A stretch of DNA of 64,000 bases from an uncultured archaeon (lineage in GTDB: Archaea > Aenigmatarchaeota > Aenigmatarchaeia > Aenigmatarchaeales > Aenigmatarchaeaceae): contig CAZSPB010000001.1 of NCBI GenBank assembly GCA_964608725.1, positions 43,696 to 107,695 on the forward strand. Reading direction: 5' to 3'. The stretch's first letter is position 1. Every line of letters starts with the position of its first letter. Shown in pieces: positions 18,904 through 52,940 of this stretch. Both the position numbers and the translations under genes were made by a program. Under the pieces are notes generated by a model. It saw nothing but the letters and a program-made list of their open reading frames with translations, had not been told where the DNA came from and did not search any database.

Positions 18904-21015
18904 TTATAGTTTACATGTAGTACAACCACCGCTATAATCAGCTGGAACTTGAATTTCAAAATTGATTAAATCTTTCTTTTCTTTCAAAGACTCCTCTGTT
19001 ACCAAAACTTGTTTCTTTCTACTCCCATCTCTATAAACAGTAACACCTTTACATCCAAGTTTATAAGCAAGCCAATAGGCCTTTTCTATATCTCTCGGTG
19101 TTGCATGATAAGGGAAATTGATAGTTTTACTTACCGCATTATCAACATACTTTTGAAATGCAGCTTGAATTCTAATATGCCATTCAGGTGTTATGTCATG
19201 GGCCGTAACAAAAATTTTTCTAATATTTTCTGGAATTTCCTCTATATGCTGAATAGATGCTTTTTTCGAAACTTTTTTCATCAATTCTTCAGAATAAAAA
19301 CCTTCTTTTATTGCAATGGTTTCAAACAATGGATTAACTTCTACTAGATTGGTTCCAATTGTATCACCAACGTTTCTCACATAAGAAATTGCAAACAATG
19401 GTTCAATTCCACTTGAACAGCCTGCTATAACACCAATTGAACCTGTTGGTGCTATTGTTGTTACAGTAGCATTTCTCATGGCATCATACTTTCCATCCCA
19501 GATACTCCCTTTAAAATTCGGGAAAGAACCTCTTTCTCTTCCAAGCTCAACTGACATTTTTCTAGCTTCTTCAGAAATGAACTTCATTACTTTTTCGGCA
19601 ACTTCTAAAGCTTTTTCAGAATTGTAAGGAATTCTAAGTTTTATGAGCATGTCAGCAAATCCCATCACTCCAAGGCCAATTTTTCTATTCGCTTTTGTCA
19701 TCTTCTCTATTTCTGGTAATGGATACTTGTTAACATCAATAACGTTGTCCAAGAAATGAACAGCACTTCTAACTGTTTTTCTTAATTTCTCCCAATCTAT
19801 TTCACCATCAACTACCATTTTCGAAAGGTTTATTGATCCTAAATTACAGCTTTCATAAGGAAGTAAAGGCTGCTCTCCACATGGATTAGTAGCTTCTATT
19901 TTACCAATATGAGGAGTAGGATTCGATTTATTAATAGTATCTATGAAAACGACACCAGGCTCACCATTTCTCCAAGCCATAGTTACTATCAAGTTCCATA
20001 TTGCCCTTGCTTTTATTTTTTTCACAGGCTTCTTTGTCCTCGGATTTATGAGATCTATATTTTTATCTTTCAAAACAGCATCCATGAATTCATCAGTAAC
20101 AGCAACAGAAATATTAAAATTATTTAGCTCACCTTCTGTTTCTTTTGCAACTATAAAATCTAAAATATCAGGATGATCAACTCTAAGAATACCCATGTTA
20201 GCCCCCCTTCTCTTACCTCCCTGTTTTATTGCATCTGTATTTGCATTAAAAACTTTCATGAAAGATAACGGCCCAGATGCAATACCACCCGTTGACCTTA
20301 CAACATCGCCTGCAGGCCTTAATTTTGAAAAATCAAACCCAGTACCACCACCTGTCTTTTGGACTAAAGCCATAGCCTTTATAGCATCATAAATACTTTC
20401 TATACTATCTTCTACAGGAAGGACAAAGCAAGCGCTTAGTTGTCCTAAATCAGTACCAGCGTTCATAAGAGTTGGAGAATTTGGTAGGAATTCTAAATTC
20501 ACAAGCATGTTGAAGAACTCTTCTTCAGTTCTCTTAACTTCTTCTTCACTTTTTCCATAAAGTTTGTCTGCAGCTGCTATAGCTTTTGCAACCCTTCTAA
20601 ATAATTGTCTTGGAGTTTCAATTATTCTCAGATTTTCATCCCTTCTCAAATACCTGCTTGCTAAGACAATAAGTGTATTTAAAGGCAATTTCAAATCATC
20701 TTCTACTCCAAGTAAAGCTTTTGCTCTCCTAATTTCAGCTCTTTTTTGCCTATAAAGTATGTAAGCTTTTGCAGTTTTTGCATGTCCATTTTCAATCAAA
20801 ACTTTTTCTACAATATCTTGAACTTGTTCTACTGTTGGTATTTCTCCTTCTTTCAATTGCTTTTCTAAATATGAGACAACTTCATCAGCAAGTTTAGCAG
20901 AAAGTTTTTTATCTTTACCACCAACAGACTTTGCGGCTTTCCATATAGCTTCAGTAATTTTATTCTTATCAAAATCTACTATTCTTCCATCCCTCTTTCT
21001 TATTTTTTTAATCAC
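18904..21015 (-). CDS. nrdJ: Class II (adenosylcobalamin-dependent) ribonucleotide reductase with N-terminal ATP-cone
   Basis: ATP-cone at [24 protein letters not shown]. Finger-loop motif [16 protein letters not shown], plus NPCGEQ and C-terminal CTTC redox cysteines. Length is 703 aa. Confidence 0.85.
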
Positions 21016-35982: not shown

Positions 35983-36750
35983 ATGAAAAAATTGATATTA
36001 ATATCAATATTTCTAATTTTTTTGGTATTTTTTCTTTCCTTTAATTTTTTAATGAATACGATTAAAGAAAAAGCCACAATTTTTACAGAGAAAATTTCTG
36101 ATCAAGTGATAGTAGATGGTGCTAAGTTTAAAGCTAAACTAATAACTACTCCAGTAAAAAATGTTGAAACTCCATTTCAATTAACAATAGTAAATGGTGT
36201 TACACCTCCAGACCCTCAAATTTGTGTTTTAAATGTTTCAATAAACGGAGAGACTGTTCTTTCAAATAAAAGTTGCATAAATGAAAATGAAACTTTAAAC
36301 CTTACATTTGACTACAAAGTTAAAGAAAATGAAACAACATGGAACATTTCAATATTTTACTCTGTTGAAAGTATAGTGAAGAATGTAAGTTTGTTTTTAA
36401 AGAAAAGGCCAGCAGAAGAAGGCAGTAAAATTAACCTTATCATCATTTTACCTGAAAAAGTAAAGAAAGGAGATATTTTAAGAGGGAGTGCAACTTTCAC
36501 TTCTGATTTAGATAATTGGATAAAAGTTGAAAAAGTTGTGTTGATAATAAAAAAAGAAAATACTTATTACAAATTTGAAAAAATTTTAGATTATTCTATC
36601 CCTCCAAAATTTCATTACACAACTGATTATGAGACTGCTTTGCCAGAAAATATCCAAACCGGAAATTATACTGTTAGGGGAATTCTTTTCTATTTTGAAA
36701 ACAATGTAGAGAAGGCTATTGGTTATTCTAGAAACATTGAAATTATTTAA
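35983..36750 (+). CDS. Secreted hypothetical protein with signal peptide
   Basis: N-terminal hydrophobic signal and several N-x-T/S sequons. Confidence 0.4.
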   Translation: MKKLILISIFLIFLVFFLSFNFLMNTIKEKATIFTEKISDQVIVDGAKFKAKLITTPVKNVETPFQLTIVNGVTPPDPQICVLNVSINGETVLSNKSCINENETLNLTFDYKVKENETTWNISIFYSVESIVKNVSLFLKKRPAEEGSKINLIIILPEKVKKGDILRGSATFTSDLDNWIKVEKVVLIIKKENTYYKFEKILDYSIPPKFHYTTDYETALPENIQTGNYTVRGILFYFENNVEKAIGYSRNIEII

Positions 36751-36822
36751 TTTCACTTTTTGTGAAAGGTTATAAGTTCTAAAATTTTCGAAAAATGAAG
36801 GAAGAAATTAAATCCCTTCTTT

Positions 36823-38550
36823 ATGGAAAAAATATATGGGGCTATAAAAGATCCTTTATTTCATGAAAGGGTAATACTTGGAGAGGATTTACAAAAAGAA
36901 TTACTTAAAGAATATCTTTCTCTATTTCCAAATATGAAAAGTGCATCTGAATCTTTAGGTCTGAATTTAACAACGTTTTTTGCATATCTTAAATATCAAA
37001 ACAAATCTATCCCTAAAAAAGTTTTTGAAGTTGTAGCCTCTCGATTAGGTATTGAAGACCCATCAAAACTAATAAGAGAAAAAACTACACTTAAAGAAAT
37101 TCGAAGCAAATTTCTTAAAGAATTTTGGAGAAACGATAGAGAACGTGCTTTGAAGGTAGCTAGAAAAGCGGCACCATTGGGGATAAAAAAGCTAGAAAAA
37201 AAGAAAGGTAAAAGTAGGAAAGAGATAATGAAAGAGGTTCGGAGTCATCTTTATAATAAGTATGGACTAGATGCTCACCGTGTAATTGGTAATTTAAGAA
37301 TCGAGAAAGCAAAAAGGGAGTTTGGTAAAAACTGGAAAATGGAAATGATCAAACCTGCAATGGAAAAACTTAAAGAGAAATATGGAGAAAAATATTGGGA
37401 AGTTCTTTTACCTAAAGCTCGAGCTGCCTTAGAGAAAAAATATGGCCCTCTTTGGGCCTTGAGGCTTTCAAGAAGAGGAATGAAGGCTTTAAGAGAAAAA
37501 TTTGGTGAAAATTGGAGAGAAATAACTTTAGAGAGGGCTAGAAAAAAACTCAAAGAAAAATATGGAGAAGATGTTTACCATTTTCTTAGTAAGTTGTCGA
37601 AAGAGACAAGAAAAGTTAAATCCTTTGCTTCAAAAAGAATGGATATGAAGGAAGAAGAAAGGAAGTGTTACAGTTGTGGAAGTACTAACCTTATCAAAGA
37701 TCATGAAACTGGTGAAACTGTTTGTGCTGATTGTGGTTTAGTTCAATATGAAGCTTCACTTGATATGGGTCCAGAATGGAGAGCATTTGATGAAGAACAA
37801 AAGAAGGCTCGCACAAGAGTAGGACCTCCACAATCCCATAGGTACCATGATAAAGGTTTAGGTACTACAATAGGATGGATGGATAAAGATGCGCATGGTA
37901 AATCGTTAAAACCTGAACAAAAGGCTCAAGCATTTAGGCTTAGAAAATGGCAGAAGAGAGCGAGAGTACAAAGTTCAGATGAAAGAAACATAGCTTATGC
38001 TTTAACTTTAATTAATGGAATAGGAGAAAATCTTAATTTACCATCTCAAGTTTTGGATAATGCTTACATAAATTACAAAAAAGCAGTAAAGAGAAAATTG
38101 ATCAGGGGAAGGTCTATTCAGCAGGTAGCTGCTGCAACAGTTTATTTAGCTTGTAGATTGTGTGGTATAAACAGAACTTTGGAAGAAGTTGCTGAAGCAG
38201 CTTCTCTGAAAAAGAAAGATGTTGGAAAGCAGTATAGATTTATTGTGAAAGAATTTGAGTATTGGAATATTCCTCAACAAAAAGCATCAAATTATGTTAG
38301 TAGATTATGTAGTAGTATGGAACAAGAAGAGATATCTTACAAGATTCTTAATGCAGCAAAAAAGGCTAATCTTACTTCCGGCCGTGGCCCTATAGGTATT
38401 GCAGCTGCCGCAACCTATATTGCAGGTGTTTTATGTGGAAAGAAAGTAACTCAAAGAGAAATTGCTGAAAGAGCGGGGGTCACAGAAGTCACAATAAGAA
38501 ATAGGTATAAAGATTTAATGGATGAATTATTATTTGAAATTTCTCTTTAA
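36823..38550 (+). CDS. tfb: Transcription initiation factor TFB with a 272-aa N-terminal extension containing tandem 20-aa repeats
   Basis: The TFB core begins at MDMKEEERKCYSCGS...CADCG (zinc ribbon), followed by the B-finger and two cyclin folds. ATG at 37639 would give a canonical 303-aa TFB. The same frame stays open for another 816 nt upstream, with repeats ([AK]L[KR]EK[YF]GExxW...) of about 60 nt period in 37290-37610. Confidence 0.85.
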   Translation: MEKIYGAIKDPLFHERVILGEDLQKELLKEYLSLFPNMKSASESLGLNLTTFFAYLKYQNKSIPKKVFEVVASRLGIEDPSKLIREKTTLKEIRSKFLKEFWRNDRERALKVARKAAPLGIKKLEKKKGKSRKEIMKEVRSHLYNKYGLDAHRVIGNLRIEKAKREFGKNWKMEMIKPAMEKLKEKYGEKYWEVLLPKARAALEKKYGPLWALRLSRRGMKALREKFGENWREITLERARKKLKEKYGEDVYHFLSKLSKETRKVKSFASKRMDMKEEERKCYSCGSTNLIKDHETGETVCADCGLVQYEASLDMGPEWRAFDEEQKKARTRVGPPQSHRYHDKGLGTTIGWMDKDAHGKSLKPEQKAQAFRLRKWQKRARVQSSDERNIAYALTLINGIGENLNLPSQVLDNAYINYKKAVKRKLIRGRSIQQVAAATVYLACRLCGINRTLEEVAEAASLKKKDVGKQYRFIVKEFEYWNIPQQKASNYVSRLCSSMEQEEISYKILNAAKKANLTSGRGPIGIAAAATYIAGVLCGKKVTQREIAERAGVTEVTIRNRYKDLMDELLFEISL

Positions 38551-38835: not shown

Positions 38836-40737
38836 TTATAATTTATCTATTCCTTTTCCAGCAGCTAAACCAATGTTGGATTTTAAAATTTTATCAAGAA
38901 TTTCCATGTTAAGTTTCTTAAGCTGGCACATATGGCCACCTTTTAAAATTTTATGAAAATCTCCAAGAAATTCAATTTTTTCAATATCAGGCAGATTAAT
39001 ATCAACACCACCAGTATAAAAATCTCTTTTTGAGTTAAATTTCATTTTATCATATTTTGCAAAACCTTGTGAGAGGAGAGAATAGTCGAATTCTGCTAAC
39101 CCTACTCTCAAATTTTTTAGTTTAATATTTTTGTCAATAAATTTAAGAATTTTCAACGCAAGCTTTTTATTTTCAACATAATCACCAGCTATAGTTTCTA
39201 TCAAATCTTTAACACCACAAACTTCAACAATGCTTATTCCATCATCAAAATGACAATATTTATCCCTTCCAACTCTATGATTTAAATAATTTAATTCAGT
39301 AAGAGCTTTTGAGTTTATACTTTCTACTGATGCTACAATACACTTTTTTATTAAATTAAGCCTTTCTAATAGTAATTCATAAATTTTATCTTCATCCTTT
39401 GTTATATAACCTAATCTAGGAAGGTTTAAAGCAACCATTTGCATTTCAACAGTTCCGATTGTTCTTTCCCAACTTTTCCAGTTTGAGTCGAGTCTTGTCC
39501 AATCAAACATGTAGTTTGCATTTTCAGTTTGCCATTTTGGAATGAGGTTAGCAACGTAAATTTGGTCAAAGACTTTTTTGATATTTTCTGGTATATCTTT
39601 TCTGTTTCTAAATTTCAAAATAAATTTTGGGCAAATTGTTTTTCCTTTTTCACTCAAAACACTTAGAAACATTTCTAACAAAGTTCTTGCTTCGGCTTCA
39701 TAATCTTTATAACTCCCAACTTCTTTCCCACCACAATAAGCTGGTTGGTTTTTCAAAAATTTTGGGATGCTAACCTCCAAATTTATATAAACCCTTAAAG
39801 ATTTTGCATTTGTGATAGTGTATAAGTGATCTAAAGAGTAAATTATTCTTTCTGCCATTTGTTTTACTTCATATTTATTCTTCTTCCTTATGTATGGTGC
39901 TAAGAAAATGTTAAAAAAATCAAATGTTTGTTGCAGGTCTGCTAAATTTTCATTTATGGCTTTTATAGCTGTCTCAAAATGCGAAACACAAGAAGTCATA
40001 TTTTTTGGTGGTTCAGCTTTTAGGCCAATTATTTTCAAACCATGCTTTAAGATGAGCGAAAAATTATGCTGAAGGTCTATAGGGTAAGATTTTCCTACAT
40101 TTCTTATATGAATATCTTTTTCTAAATGTGCTCTCACAATTTCTCCCAAATTTTTTTCTCTTAATACATCAAGGAAATTTTTCTTTCTAAATAAAAACTC
40201 AGTTGATTGTAAAGCTTCTCTTAAGCGATATATTTTTCTATTTTCTTCTTCAAGAATTTCGAATAAAATTTTCCTAATTTCTGCAAACGTTATCCCATTA
40301 TAAACTCTCTTTGCTAACACTCTTCTTATTTTTTCAATAAGATCTTTTGGTGTCCCTGCTTCAATTGCAATTCTCTCTATTACATCTATATCAAATTCTT
40401 GCAATTTTCCTTCCCAATCTATTGCCAACAACTTTTTCTTTCTTCCTCTTTCTTTTCTAGAGAATACTTGTGAAATGCCTTCTGGAGAAATATCTAACTT
40501 AAATTTTTCTAAAGTATAGATATTCTTTTTCCTTCCATCTCTTATCTTTCTACATCTTAAAATCCCAGCTTTCTCCATTTGATTTAAGTACTTGAAAGCT
40601 GTTGAGAAACTTATTTTCAATTCATTTCTTATATCAGACAAAGATTTTGAGCCTTCTCTTGCGATTAAATCTACAATTTTTAATTTTATAGGATTATCAA
40701 GAGCAGAAAGTAGTTCTGCAAGCTTTTCAGGTTTCAT
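38836..40737 (-). CDS. Large protein with N-terminal ArsR-like winged helix and an uncharacterised 550-aa domain
   Basis: N-terminal wHTH (LSDIRNELKISFSTAFKYLNQMEKAGILRCRK). An internal ATP-cone-like stretch (IDVIERIAIEAGTPKDLIEKIRRVLAKRV...ITFAEIRKILFEIL). The segment YTGGVDINLP resembles RNR finger-loop motifs. No glycyl-radical or other known catalytic motif was recognised. Confidence 0.5.
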   Translation of the reverse strand: MKPEKLAELLSALDNPIKLKIVDLIAREGSKSLSDIRNELKISFSTAFKYLNQMEKAGILRCRKIRDGRKKNIYTLEKFKLDISPEGISQVFSRKERGRKKKLLAIDWEGKLQEFDIDVIERIAIEAGTPKDLIEKIRRVLAKRVYNGITFAEIRKILFEILEEENRKIYRLREALQSTEFLFRKKNFLDVLREKNLGEIVRAHLEKDIHIRNVGKSYPIDLQHNFSLILKHGLKIIGLKAEPPKNMTSCVSHFETAIKAINENLADLQQTFDFFNIFLAPYIRKKNKYEVKQMAERIIYSLDHLYTITNAKSLRVYINLEVSIPKFLKNQPAYCGGKEVGSYKDYEAEARTLLEMFLSVLSEKGKTICPKFILKFRNRKDIPENIKKVFDQIYVANLIPKWQTENANYMFDWTRLDSNWKSWERTIGTVEMQMVALNLPRLGYITKDEDKIYELLLERLNLIKKCIVASVESINSKALTELNYLNHRVGRDKYCHFDDGISIVEVCGVKDLIETIAGDYVENKKLALKILKFIDKNIKLKNLRVGLAEFDYSLLSQGFAKYDKMKFNSKRDFYTGGVDINLPDIEKIEFLGDFHKILKGGHMCQLKKLNMEILDKILKSNIGLAAGKGIDKL

Positions 40738-52424: not shown

Positions 52425-52833
52425 TAAATCACCCCTTCTAATTTTGGACTTATAAATTTATAAATCTAAATTTTGAATTTTTTTTAGAAGGTTTAGGGTA
52501 TAGGAGCATTTATTTAATTATATATTTATATTACTTTGATTTCAAACCATCGGAGTCTAGAATTTCACTATAGTTCAACGCTCCTACAATTTCCTATTAT
52601 TTTCATCTACTGTGGTCAAAAAATTTGGAGTGTGATATTCCTTAATTCTGGTAGGCATGATTTAACTTTCTTTTCTAATTTACTTAATAATCTTTGAGGT
52701 AGTTTATTCACTTCCATTACTTCCTGAAAAAAGTAATGTTTCTTACGGAATATATCTTTTTGTTGTATTTTCAACAAAGGTAATTTAGAAAAGTTCTTAA
52801 ATTCTAAAATTTGAATATTCTTTAGTTTTTAAT

Positions 52834-52906
52834 AGCCCCGTGGTGTAGTGGCCAAGCACAGAGGGCTCTGGACCCTCAGACGGAGGTTCGAATCCTCCCG
52901 GGGCTA
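52834..52906 (+). tRNA. tRNA-Gln (anticodon CUG)
   Basis: Folded by hand. Acceptor AGCCCCG/CGGGGCT; D-arm GTGT-AGTGGCCAA-GCAC; anticodon stem GAGGG/CCCTC with loop CTCTGGA (anticodon CTG); T-arm GGAGG-TTCGAAT-CCTCC; discriminator A; no encoded CCA. Confidence 0.9.
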
Positions 52907-52940
52907 TTCTATTTTATAAAGAAGAGAACAATTTTTCTAT

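What the first reader, a model, noticed from the sequence alone, without database searches (positions are those of the whole stretch)
36823..37638. TFB carries a 272-aa N-terminal extension built from about 20-aa tandem repeats
A canonical TFB (zinc ribbon CYSCGS..CADCG, B-finger, two cyclin folds) would start at ATG 37639 and be 303 aa. The frame stays open for 816 nt upstream in a genome where stop codons are frequent, so a fusion is more likely than chance. The extension contains an HTH-like N-terminal segment and 5-6 imperfect repeats ([AK]L[KR]EK[YF]GE..W.....A). The repeats are visible in DNA as about 60-nt periodicity across 37290-37610. Extended TFBs are rare; this could tether TFB to another factor, or represent a captured upstream gene.
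Basis: seen in the sequence. Interest (0 to 1): 0.65.

Follow-up and report, generated by a model that had tools for sequence, protein, structure and literature searches.

The report
TFB fused to HTH-plus-repeat module
An uncultivated, AT-rich archaeon encodes its transcription initiation factor TFB as one 575-residue protein whose first 272 residues are a conserved helix-turn-helix head plus a basic array of 20-residue repeats, and related genomes put the same module on TFB and on the other initiation factor TFE, suggesting a lineage-specific extra layer on the basal transcription machinery.

Summary
ORF 36823-38550 (+) encodes 575 aa: a canonical TFB (aa 273-575) preceded by 272 aa with no Pfam or NCBIfam family. 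The open frame is not chance (P about 4e-10), and the identical protein occurs on three public contigs.

The extension has four parts:
- an Xre/Cro-like HTH (aa 15-90);
- a conserved connector;
- six exact-register 20-aa "KYG" units plus one degenerate unit (aa 118-257, net charge +32);
- a variable linker.

The fusion is conserved. P0124 (571 aa, 727-kb contig) aligns end to end at 48% identity, with the extension (47.8%) conserved about as well as the core (51.3%).

The same module heads TFE-alpha-like proteins, winged-helix proteins and a zinc-ribbon-only protein. In a sister genome the module-TFE gene lies in the neighbourhood where L002 has module-TFB.

The repeat is homologous (hhalign 99.5%) to arrays in GIY-YIG and DUF559 homing-endonuclease-like proteins, and more distantly to GsiB/LEA-1 20-mers.

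Best reading: a flexibly tethered DNA-contacting module built into general transcription factors. The fusion is shown; the DNA-binding function is inferred.

An internal start giving a short TFB cannot be excluded. I found no literature on this. I rate it a new variant of a known kind.

The parts
36770..36778 (+). TATA-like element TTATAAGTT, 53 nt upstream of the start codon (candidate promoter; implies a leader of about 20-25 nt)
   Evidence: Read directly from the sequence. The same word lies upstream of the neighbouring gene at 35983. TATA-like words are the only enriched upstream motifs in the window. No functional evidence.
36823..38550 (+). Complete ORF, 575 aa: module-TFB fusion protein
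   Evidence: The exact protein is on 3 public contigs. It aligns end to end with P0124 at 48% identity.
36865..37092 (+). Xre/Cro-like helix-turn-helix domain (aa 15-90)
   Evidence: AF2 pLDDT is 91-96 over aa 21-80. Foldseek matches LexA-like, SinR, Aca7 and Cro-type domains at probability up to 0.84 in PDB and 0.99 in BFVD. Homologues P0128 and P0133 pass Pfam HTH_3. This part is 54% identical to P0124.
37090..37173 (+). Conserved connector helices (aa 90-117; motif TL.EIR...W..NRE...A..AS)
   Evidence: Family-wide conserved columns L90 and G120 and the consensus in A3. Helices at aa 90-104 and 106-128 in the model.
37174..37593 (+). Array of seven 20-aa KYG units (aa 118-257): one degenerate unit plus six in exact register; strongly basic
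   Evidence: Anchors at aa 147-247 spaced 20 apart. Autocorrelation. The 177-aa segment aa 96-272, which contains the array, has net charge +32 and pI 10.4. Helical with pLDDT 83-92. hhalign 99.5% to homing-endonuclease repeats.
37594..37662 (+). Variable linker between module and zinc ribbon (aa 258-280)
   Evidence: pLDDT falls to 58-61. Sequence and length are not conserved with P0124 (alignment A6).
37639..37647 (+). Met273 and Met275: candidate ancestral or internal start codons of a canonical 303-aa TFB
   Evidence: P0124 also keeps a Met directly before its ribbon. The internal-promoter test was inconclusive: both sites score 6 of 8, which 28% of random internal ATGs also reach.
37663..37788 (+). 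TFB zinc ribbon with four cysteines (aa 281-322)
   Evidence: Pfam Zn_Ribbon_TF, 55.5 bits. Cys pattern CYSC...CADC aligned to canonical TFBs.
37789..37992 (+). B-reader / B-linker region (aa 323-390)
   Evidence: Invariant GPEWRAFD...HDKGL...W columns shared with Bathyarchaeia TFBs.
37993..38547 (+). Two cyclin-like TFIIB repeats (aa 391-575) with C-terminal HTH
   Evidence: Pfam TFIIB, 2 stretches, E 7e-35. 56-59% identity to Bathyarchaeia TFBs.

Best explanation
The gene encodes a single polypeptide. A conserved N-terminal module is joined by a flexible linker of about 23 residues to the zinc ribbon of an otherwise canonical TFB. The module consists of an Xre-type HTH, a connector and a basic array of seven 20-residue helical KYG units.

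The module is an independent evolutionary unit. In this group of AT-rich archaea it has been placed at the N-terminus of proteins that dock on RNA polymerase: TFB, TFE-alpha, and a protein with a zinc ribbon only.

Proposed mechanism (inferred, not shown):
- The HTH and the basic repeat array contact promoter-proximal DNA.
- The zinc ribbon (in TFB) or the winged helix plus ribbon (in TFE) holds the polymerase.
- The basal factor therefore carries its own recruitment or anchoring domain in cis. This would be comparable in logic to a DNA-bound activator that recruits TFB, or to the flexibly tethered alpha-CTD of bacterial RNA polymerase.
- The number of repeats (7 on TFB, 5 on most TFE fusions) would set the reach.

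Confidence by step: real and conserved fusion, about 0.9. Module contacts nucleic acid, about 0.5. Module acts as a promoter anchor, about 0.35.
For: Shown:
- One open frame, far beyond chance, with the identical sequence on independent assemblies.
- P0124 aligns collinearly across the junction (aa 6-575 against 2-571). The extension is 47.8% identical and the core 51.3%, so the extension is under comparable constraint.
- The window, L002 and L004 are syntenic relatives.
- The TFB core is intact: four Cys, B-reader, two cyclin repeats.
- The same module is N-terminal in TFE-alpha-like proteins. P0138 and P0130 pass the Pfam TFIIE_alpha cut-off, and P0126 and P0127 are homologous to them. It is also N-terminal in winged-helix proteins (P0125, P0128, P0142) and in P0129, which ends in a TFB-like ribbon.

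Supporting the DNA-contact inference:
- The head has an Xre/Cro fold.
- The repeat-containing segment (aa 96-272) has net charge +32.
- The repeats are homologous (hhalign 99.5%, E 7e-23) to arrays attached to GIY-YIG and DUF559/Vsr nuclease domains. PHROGs annotates those proteins as homing endonucleases. Such enzymes need an appended DNA-targeting region; the GIY-YIG two-domain architecture is described in PMC3664794.
- Repeat number is conserved by partner: 7 in both TFB fusions, and 5 in P0126 and P0127.
Against: - There is no direct evidence of DNA binding. The window's own HTH does not reach any Pfam HTH threshold.
- The repeat array has no solved structural counterpart.
- Its more distant relatives are GsiB/LEA-1 hydrophilins, which are not DNA-binding proteins. 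The array could be only a hydrophilic spacer.
- No extra promoter motif beyond TATA-like words was found upstream of the 37 usable genes in the window.
- An internal start at Met273/275 that yields a plain TFB cannot be excluded.
- It is unknown whether this genome has another TFB. The L002 genome has a second one.
- The family is rare: 42 representatives among 1.84 billion proteins.
Confidence: 0.55

Rival explanations
1. Two products from one gene. An internal promoter or internal translation start at Met273/Met275 gives the ordinary 303-aa TFB that does the housekeeping work. The 575-aa form is a minor, regulatory or condition-specific isoform.
For: - Both orthologues keep a Met codon immediately before the zinc ribbon.
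- Each has an A/T-rich element about 30 nt upstream (score 6 of 8 at -30 and -32). That is the spacing at which TATA-like words peak before start codons in this genome.
Against: - The same score is reached by 28% of random internal ATGs, so the signal is not significant.
- TFE fusions have no Met at the junction.
- The extension is conserved about as well as the core, which argues that the long form matters.
Confidence: 0.2
2. The module is a protein-protein interaction or assembly device rather than a DNA binder. Identical-type modules on TFB and TFE-alpha would pair with each other, or with a common partner, to couple the two factors on the polymerase.
For: - The same module sits on both factors, whose N-termini lie on the same (clamp/dock) side of the polymerase. 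That placement is from established PIC structures and my own knowledge, not a tool result.
- The P0124 (TFB) repeats are closer to the P0127 (TFE) repeats from a sister genome (53%) than to the window's TFB repeats (46%). This would be expected if the two copies co-evolve.
Against: - The head is a classical DNA-binding fold.
- The +32 charge disfavors self-association.
- The relatives of the repeats sit in nucleases that need DNA targeting.
- Co-occurrence of both fusions in one genome has not been shown.
Confidence: 0.15
3. A domesticated or decaying remnant of a mobile-element (homing-endonuclease-type) DNA-binding region that became fused upstream of TFB and is tolerated with little function.
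For: - The repeats are shared with homing-endonuclease-like proteins.
- A sister family has the HTH + KYG array followed by a duplicated nuclease-like tail (P0133-P0145).
- The partner differs at a syntenic locus, which suggests recombinational mobility of the module.
Against: - The module is conserved at 48% across orthologues whose core is 51% identical.
- The 20-aa register and the unit number are retained.
- The module always sits N-terminal to polymerase-binding or winged-helix domains.
- No viral contigs carry it.
- The genomic contexts are ordinary chromosomal ones.
Confidence: 0.1

Closest known systems
Canonical archaeal TFB (TFIIB family; NCBIfam PRK00423; Pfam PF08271 + PF00382 x2)
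   Same: Residues 273-575 have every TFB element: a four-Cys zinc ribbon, B-reader and B-linker, and two cyclin repeats. They are 56-59% identical to Bathyarchaeia TFBs.
   Different: A 272-aa structured N-terminal module precedes the ribbon. The 120 closest TFBs are all 312-329 aa.
Specialised TFB paralogues and TFB-recruiting activators (Sulfolobus TFB3; haloarchaeal TFB expansions; P. furiosus TFB-RF1)
   Same: They are ways of adding promoter selectivity or activation at the TFB step (PMC7289017, PMC6101594, PMC5937170, PMC3261711). P0129, which is module plus ribbon only, recalls the truncated, ribbon-bearing TFB3.
   Different: In those systems the extra specificity comes from paralogue sequence divergence, or from a separate protein acting in trans. 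Here a DNA-binding-type module is covalently joined to a full TFB, and the same module is also on TFE-alpha.
Repeat-bearing GIY-YIG and DUF559/Vsr homing-endonuclease-like proteins (PHROG 314, PHROG 3339; Pfam DUF7487)
   Same: The same 20-aa unit (consensus A..aLk.KYG.dW.k) with the same exact 20-residue spacing. hhalign gives 99.5% probability.
   Different: Those proteins carry a nuclease domain and lack the Xre-type head. The window protein does not reach the DUF7487 Pfam model. The function of the repeat is not described anywhere I could search.
Group 1 LEA / GsiB / KGG 20-residue hydrophilin repeat (Pfam LEA_5, KGG)
   Same: Period of exactly 20 residues (motif quoted in PMC5014412). Weak but significant profile matches: P0158 passes LEA_5 and KGG, and hhalign gives 98%.
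   Different: The window's units lack the GRKGG signature, are predicted as stable helices, and match no LEA_5 or KGG model. The compared sequences were selected by the profile itself, so the link is tentative.
Xre/Cro/SinR-type HTH regulators
   Same: Fold of aa 15-90. Homologues pass Pfam HTH_3.
   Different: Here the HTH is followed by a repeat array and a general transcription factor rather than an oligomerisation or sensor domain.

Membership tests
TFB / TFIIB | N-terminal zinc ribbon with four metal ligands | tested here: met
   Pfam PF08271, 55.5 bits against a cut-off of 29. CYSC...CADC aligned to canonical TFBs.
TFB / TFIIB | Conserved B-reader / B-linker between ribbon and core | tested here: met
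   Invariant columns G316 P317 E318 R320 A321 F322 D323 ... H342 D343 K344 G345 L346 shared with Bathyarchaeia TFBs.
TFB / TFIIB | Two cyclin-like repeats | tested here: met
   Pfam PF00382, two stretches, 119 bits against a cut-off of 23.6.
TFB / TFIIB | NCBIfam PRK00423 whole-protein cut-off (384 bits) | tested here: inconclusive
   382.1 bits over aa 271-573, which is 2 bits under the cut-off.
TFB / TFIIB | Supports promoter-directed initiation with TBP and RNA polymerase | not testable with these tools
   Needs in vitro transcription.
Xre-type HTH (Pfam HTH_3 clan) | Sequence match to an HTH model above threshold | tested here: not met
   The window protein gives only HTH_50 at 13.2 bits against a cut-off of 27. 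Family members P0128 (29.2 bits) and P0133 (23.9 bits) pass HTH_3.
Xre-type HTH (Pfam HTH_3 clan) | Five-helix Cro/cI-like fold | tested here: met
   AF2 helices at aa 21-32, 38-44, 49-56, 65-74 and 80-83 with pLDDT above 90. Foldseek matches to SinR, LexA-like, Aca7 and N15 Cro with TM 0.5-0.7 on the target. E-values are weak because the query is 272 aa.
DUF7487 / homing-endonuclease 20-mer repeat | Match to Pfam PF24308 | tested here: not met
   No hit at E < 1 for the window extension. P0150 hits at 1.5e-32.
DUF7487 / homing-endonuclease 20-mer repeat | Homologous 20-aa units in exact register | tested here: met
   hhalign 99.5%, E 7e-23 over 119 columns. Spacing of 20 in all groups. HMMER E 1e-24 to P0131.
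Group 1 LEA / KGG repeat | Match to LEA_5 or KGG models; GRKGG signature | tested here: not met
   No Pfam hit. The units lack GG. There is only a distant profile-profile similarity.
NUMOD (nuclease-associated modular DNA-binding) motifs | Match to NUMOD1 or NUMOD3 | tested here: not met
   None in the window protein. Weak NUMOD1 in P0135 and weak NUMOD3 in P0149, outside the KYG units.

The most novel reading that the evidence does not exclude
A clade of small, AT-rich archaea has rebuilt its initiation machinery so that both TFB and TFE-alpha carry the same N-terminal HTH + KYG-repeat DNA-binding module. The two copies are kept alike by recombination between them, which would explain the partner swap at a syntenic locus and the TFB/TFE module similarity exceeding orthologue similarity. 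The module would read an additional promoter feature, or bridge TFB and TFE on DNA. That would be a lineage-specific third layer of promoter recognition beyond TATA and BRE, built from a repeat otherwise used by homing endonucleases.
Probability: 0.25. Interest if true: 0.85.

Novelty: new variant of a known kind. Interest (0 to 1): 0.62.

Why it matters
- TFB and TFE are the universal archaeal counterparts of TFIIB and TFIIE, and their domain architecture is regarded as essentially fixed.
- A conserved, structured, probably nucleic-acid-binding module wired to the polymerase-docking end of both factors would be a new way of adding promoter selectivity or recruitment in cis. It may be relevant to how very AT-rich genomes, where TATA-like words are everywhere, achieve specificity.
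- It also gives a first functional handle on an uncharacterised 20-residue repeat (DUF7487-like). That repeat is shared by homing endonucleases and distantly resembles LEA-1/GsiB motifs.
- The idea is directly testable with recombinant protein.

Tried and rejected
- Tandem Repeats Finder on the DNA found nothing. The repeat is a protein-level feature.
- The sigma-70 promoter and terminator scan was uninformative for an archaeon.
- Word-indexed protein searches found only 1-3 relatives and even missed the window's own protein. The exhaustive HMMER search was needed.
- The GTDB representative genomes gave no relative. Viral contigs gave none. The metagenome scan gave only one 30-residue fragment.
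- The internal-promoter test was not significant.
- The search for an extra promoter motif found only TATA-like words.
- There is no second TFB, no TFE and no second module copy in the 64-kb window.
- Assembly artefact or chance ORF: rejected.
- Mobile-element or viral origin of the locus: rejected on context.
- DPANN affiliation: considered but not supported by anything tested. The TFB core is closest to Bathyarchaeia TFBs, and the lineage is left open.
- Literature searches for an extended TFB, for TFB/TFE fusions and for DUF7487 found nothing relevant.
Full report
**1. The observation**

The + strand ORF 36823..38550 encodes 575 aa.
- Residues 273-575 are a complete TFB. Pfam finds the TFIIB zinc ribbon (aa 281-322, 55.5 bits) and two TFIIB cyclin repeats. 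NCBIfam PRK00423 covers aa 271-573 at 382 bits, against a cut-off of 384.
- In an alignment with canonical TFBs, the four ribbon cysteines, the B-reader and B-linker, and both cyclin folds are in place.
- The 272 residues in front match no Pfam, NCBIfam or PHROG family.
- The nearest in-frame upstream stop is at 36796. In this 30.4% G+C window, 272 open codons have P = 3.6e-10, and only 29 of 8607 stop-to-stop stretches are that long.
- The identical 575-aa sequence is on three contigs in public assemblies (sources NCBI, JGI, ENA, Logan; longest 318 kb) and is called at full length on the one place the look-up listed, L010. It is therefore not an assembly or reading artefact.
- Composition runs smoothly across the junction. 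No RNA family or tRNA lies in the region.

**2. Anatomy of the extension**

An AlphaFold2 model built on 13 family members is confident, with mean pLDDT 84.5. It shows four parts.
- *HTH head (aa 15-90).* A short strand plus five helices, pLDDT above 90. Foldseek matches LexA-like, SinR, Aca7 and Cro-type HTH domains, with probability up to 0.84 in PDB and 0.99 in BFVD. The homologues P0128 and P0133 pass Pfam HTH_3.
- *Connector (aa 90-117).* Conserved across the family.
- *Repeat array (aa 118-257).*
  - Helices of about 17 residues are separated by turns of about 3 residues at the KYG motif.
  - Protein autocorrelation is positive only at offsets 20, 40 and 60. The best diagonal scores (47, 40, 39) exceed or equal the best of 300 shuffles.
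  - The [YF]G anchors fall at aa 147, 167, 187, 207, 227 and 247, exactly 20 apart, with a degenerate unit before them.
  - The 177-aa segment aa 96-272, which contains the array, has net charge +32 and pI 10.4.
- *Linker (aa 258-280).* pLDDT falls to about 60 here, and this stretch is not conserved in the orthologue.
- At DNA level the periodicity is faint, and TRF reports nothing.

**3. The fusion is conserved**

An exhaustive HMMER search of 1.84 billion representatives found 42 relatives of the module.
- P0124 (571 aa) aligns with the window protein in one collinear HSP, aa 6-575 against 2-571, at 48% identity. The extension is 47.8% identical and the core 51.3%.
- P0124 lies on a 727-kb contig (L002) in an ordinary chromosomal context.
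- The window, L002 and L004 share several neighbouring genes: a 132-aa gene, DJ-1, a 108-120-aa gene and an ATP-cone gene. They are therefore related genomes, and the fusion predates their divergence.
- None of the 120 closest TFB cores (56-59% identity, mostly Bathyarchaeia) is longer than 329 aa.
- L002 also encodes a second, 306-aa TFB. Its ribbon has lost all its cysteines, but its core is 66-72% identical to Bathyarchaeia TFBs.
- The window holds no second TFB, no TFE and no second copy of the module.

**4. The module is a family with telling partners**

It is always N-terminal. The partners are listed below.

| Partner | Proteins |
|---|---|
| TFB | window protein, P0124 |
| TFE-alpha-like winged helix plus four-Cys ribbon | P0138 and P0130 (both pass Pfam TFIIE_alpha); P0126 and P0127 (homologous to them) |
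| Winged-helix proteins | P0125, P0128, P0142 |
| TFB-like ribbon only | P0129 |
| Tail of about 90 aa with no family match | P0001, P0122, P0123 |
| Duplicated nuclease-like tail | P0133-P0145 |

- Repeat number tracks the partner: 7 units in both TFB fusions, 5 in P0126 and P0127, and 6 in the stand-alone forms.
- All genomic contexts examined are archaeal chromosomal. No viral contig carries the module.

**5. An unexplained locus-level swap**

| Locus | Gene order around the fusion |
|---|---|
| L002 | [132 aa] [201 aa] [module-TFB] [54 aa] |
| L004/L005 | [125 aa, 75% identical] [module-TFE] [45 aa] [111 aa] [66 aa, 83% identical to the 54-aa gene] |

- Nucleotide homology (70%) starts 11 nt upstream of both start codons. 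It runs through about 540 nt of the module and stops where TFB or TFE begins.
- The flanking orthologues are 75-83% identical, but the two modules only 52%.
- In the repeat part, P0124 (TFB) is closer to P0127 (TFE) at 53% than to the window TFB at 46%. P0127 is at most 35% identical to the other TFE-fused arrays.
- Recombination or gene conversion between paralogous modules within a genome would explain this. Showing it needs the complete genomes.

**6. What the repeat is**

- The same 20-aa unit, with the same exact spacing, occurs after GIY-YIG domains (P0131, P0149, P0154, P0161) and before DUF559/Vsr-type nuclease domains (P0148, P0150). PHROGs calls these proteins homing endonucleases, and Pfam labels the array in P0150 as DUF7487.
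- Profile-profile comparison with the transcription-factor-fused arrays gives 99.5% probability, E 7e-23.
- At the weak end of the list are GsiB/LEA-1-type proteins. P0158 passes LEA_5 and KGG, and hhalign gives 98%. Group 1 LEA proteins are known for a 20-residue motif (PMC5014412).
- These comparisons use sequences picked by the profile itself, and repeats inflate scores. I treat the endonuclease link as solid and the LEA link as tentative.
- I found no paper on DUF7487 or on such TFBs.

**7. Mechanism**

*Shown:* a conserved single-ORF fusion of HTH, basic repeat array and flexible linker to an intact TFB.

*Inferred:* the module contacts DNA. The reasons are as follows.
- Its head is a DNA-binding fold.
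- The array is very basic.
- In three unrelated nuclease families the same array occupies the position of the DNA-targeting region. GIY-YIG homing endonucleases are catalytic domain plus DNA-binding domain (PMC3664794).

From established PIC structures (my own knowledge, not a tool result), the TFB ribbon docks on the polymerase dock domain and the TFE-alpha winged helix on the clamp. N-terminal modules on either factor would then sit on the same face, towards upstream DNA. I therefore favour a cis-acting anchor or recruitment domain whose repeat number sets its reach.

Weaknesses of this reading:
- No binding data exist.
- No extra promoter motif was detectable in 37 upstream regions.
- The LEA-like kinship allows a mere hydrophilic spacer.

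Rivals:
- A short TFB made from Met273/275. The signal is not significant, because 28% of random internal ATGs score as well.
- A protein-protein coupling device between TFB and TFE.
- A tolerated remnant of a mobile-element DNA-binding region.

**8. Verdict**

- It is a TFB, with all sequence-testable features met. It carries a previously undescribed N-terminal module that is shared with TFE-alpha in related genomes.
- Novelty: new variant of a known kind. Interest: 0.62.
- TFE-beta is reported absent from DPANN and group II Euryarchaeota (PMC7289017). Whether this lineage lacks it, and whether the module compensates, could not be tested. The lineage itself remains unplaced.

Noticed in passing
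window 38836-40737 (-): A 633-aa protein with an ArsR-type winged HTH (aa 14-59) fused in front of an anaerobic-ribonucleotide-reductase-like (NrdD, PF13597) body. It is convergent with the TFB gene. The window also encodes a B12-dependent NrdJ (18904-21015).
   Followed up: partly
L002 16155-17075: A second TFB paralogue (306 aa) lies 4.4 kb downstream of the module-TFB gene. All four zinc-ribbon cysteines are lost, yet the core is 66-72% identical to Bathyarchaeia TFBs, closer than the fused TFB at 63%.
   Followed up: partly
L002 9990-12107 versus L004 652-2752: The same neighbourhood holds module-TFB in one genome and module-TFE-alpha in a sister genome. Nucleotide homology covers the upstream flank, the first ~540 nt of the gene and the downstream 54/66-aa gene.
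   Followed up: partly
window 37275-37553 (-); L002 10198-10815 (-): Long antisense ORFs (92 aa and 205 aa) lie across the repeat array. They are shadows of the K/E-rich sense codons, conserved only because the sense strand is conserved, and are not genes.
   Followed up: yes
proteins P0133-P0145 (alignment A7): A sister family of 360-540 aa has the same HTH + KYG array followed by a twice-repeated nuclease-like motif (E..D..IP...P.I.IE.S and D..E...KI.YEI.S). It has no Pfam family.
   Followed up: partly
protein P0137: A 6648-aa protein with ten separate stretches matching the KYG-repeat profile (E 5e-16).
   Followed up: no
L011 278-1807 (P0130): A TFE-alpha fusion that carries two tandem copies of the HTH head before the repeats.
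   Followed up: partly
window 36795-36866 (+): A 23-codon upstream ORF starts at ATG 36795, out of frame with the TFB start at 36823 and overlapping it. It lies between the TATA-like element and the start codon.
   Followed up: no
window 52833-52907 (+): tRNA-Gln(CTG), the only RNA gene detected in the window. It sits between the DJ-1 cluster and the ATP-cone gene, which are adjacent in the related loci L002 and L004.
   Followed up: no
search tools (versus 22, 77): The word-indexed protein search missed the window's own protein and nearly all family members, although they are in the collection. This is probably because K/E-rich words swamp the candidate list. Negative results from that tool on low-complexity-like queries should not be trusted.
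   Followed up: yes
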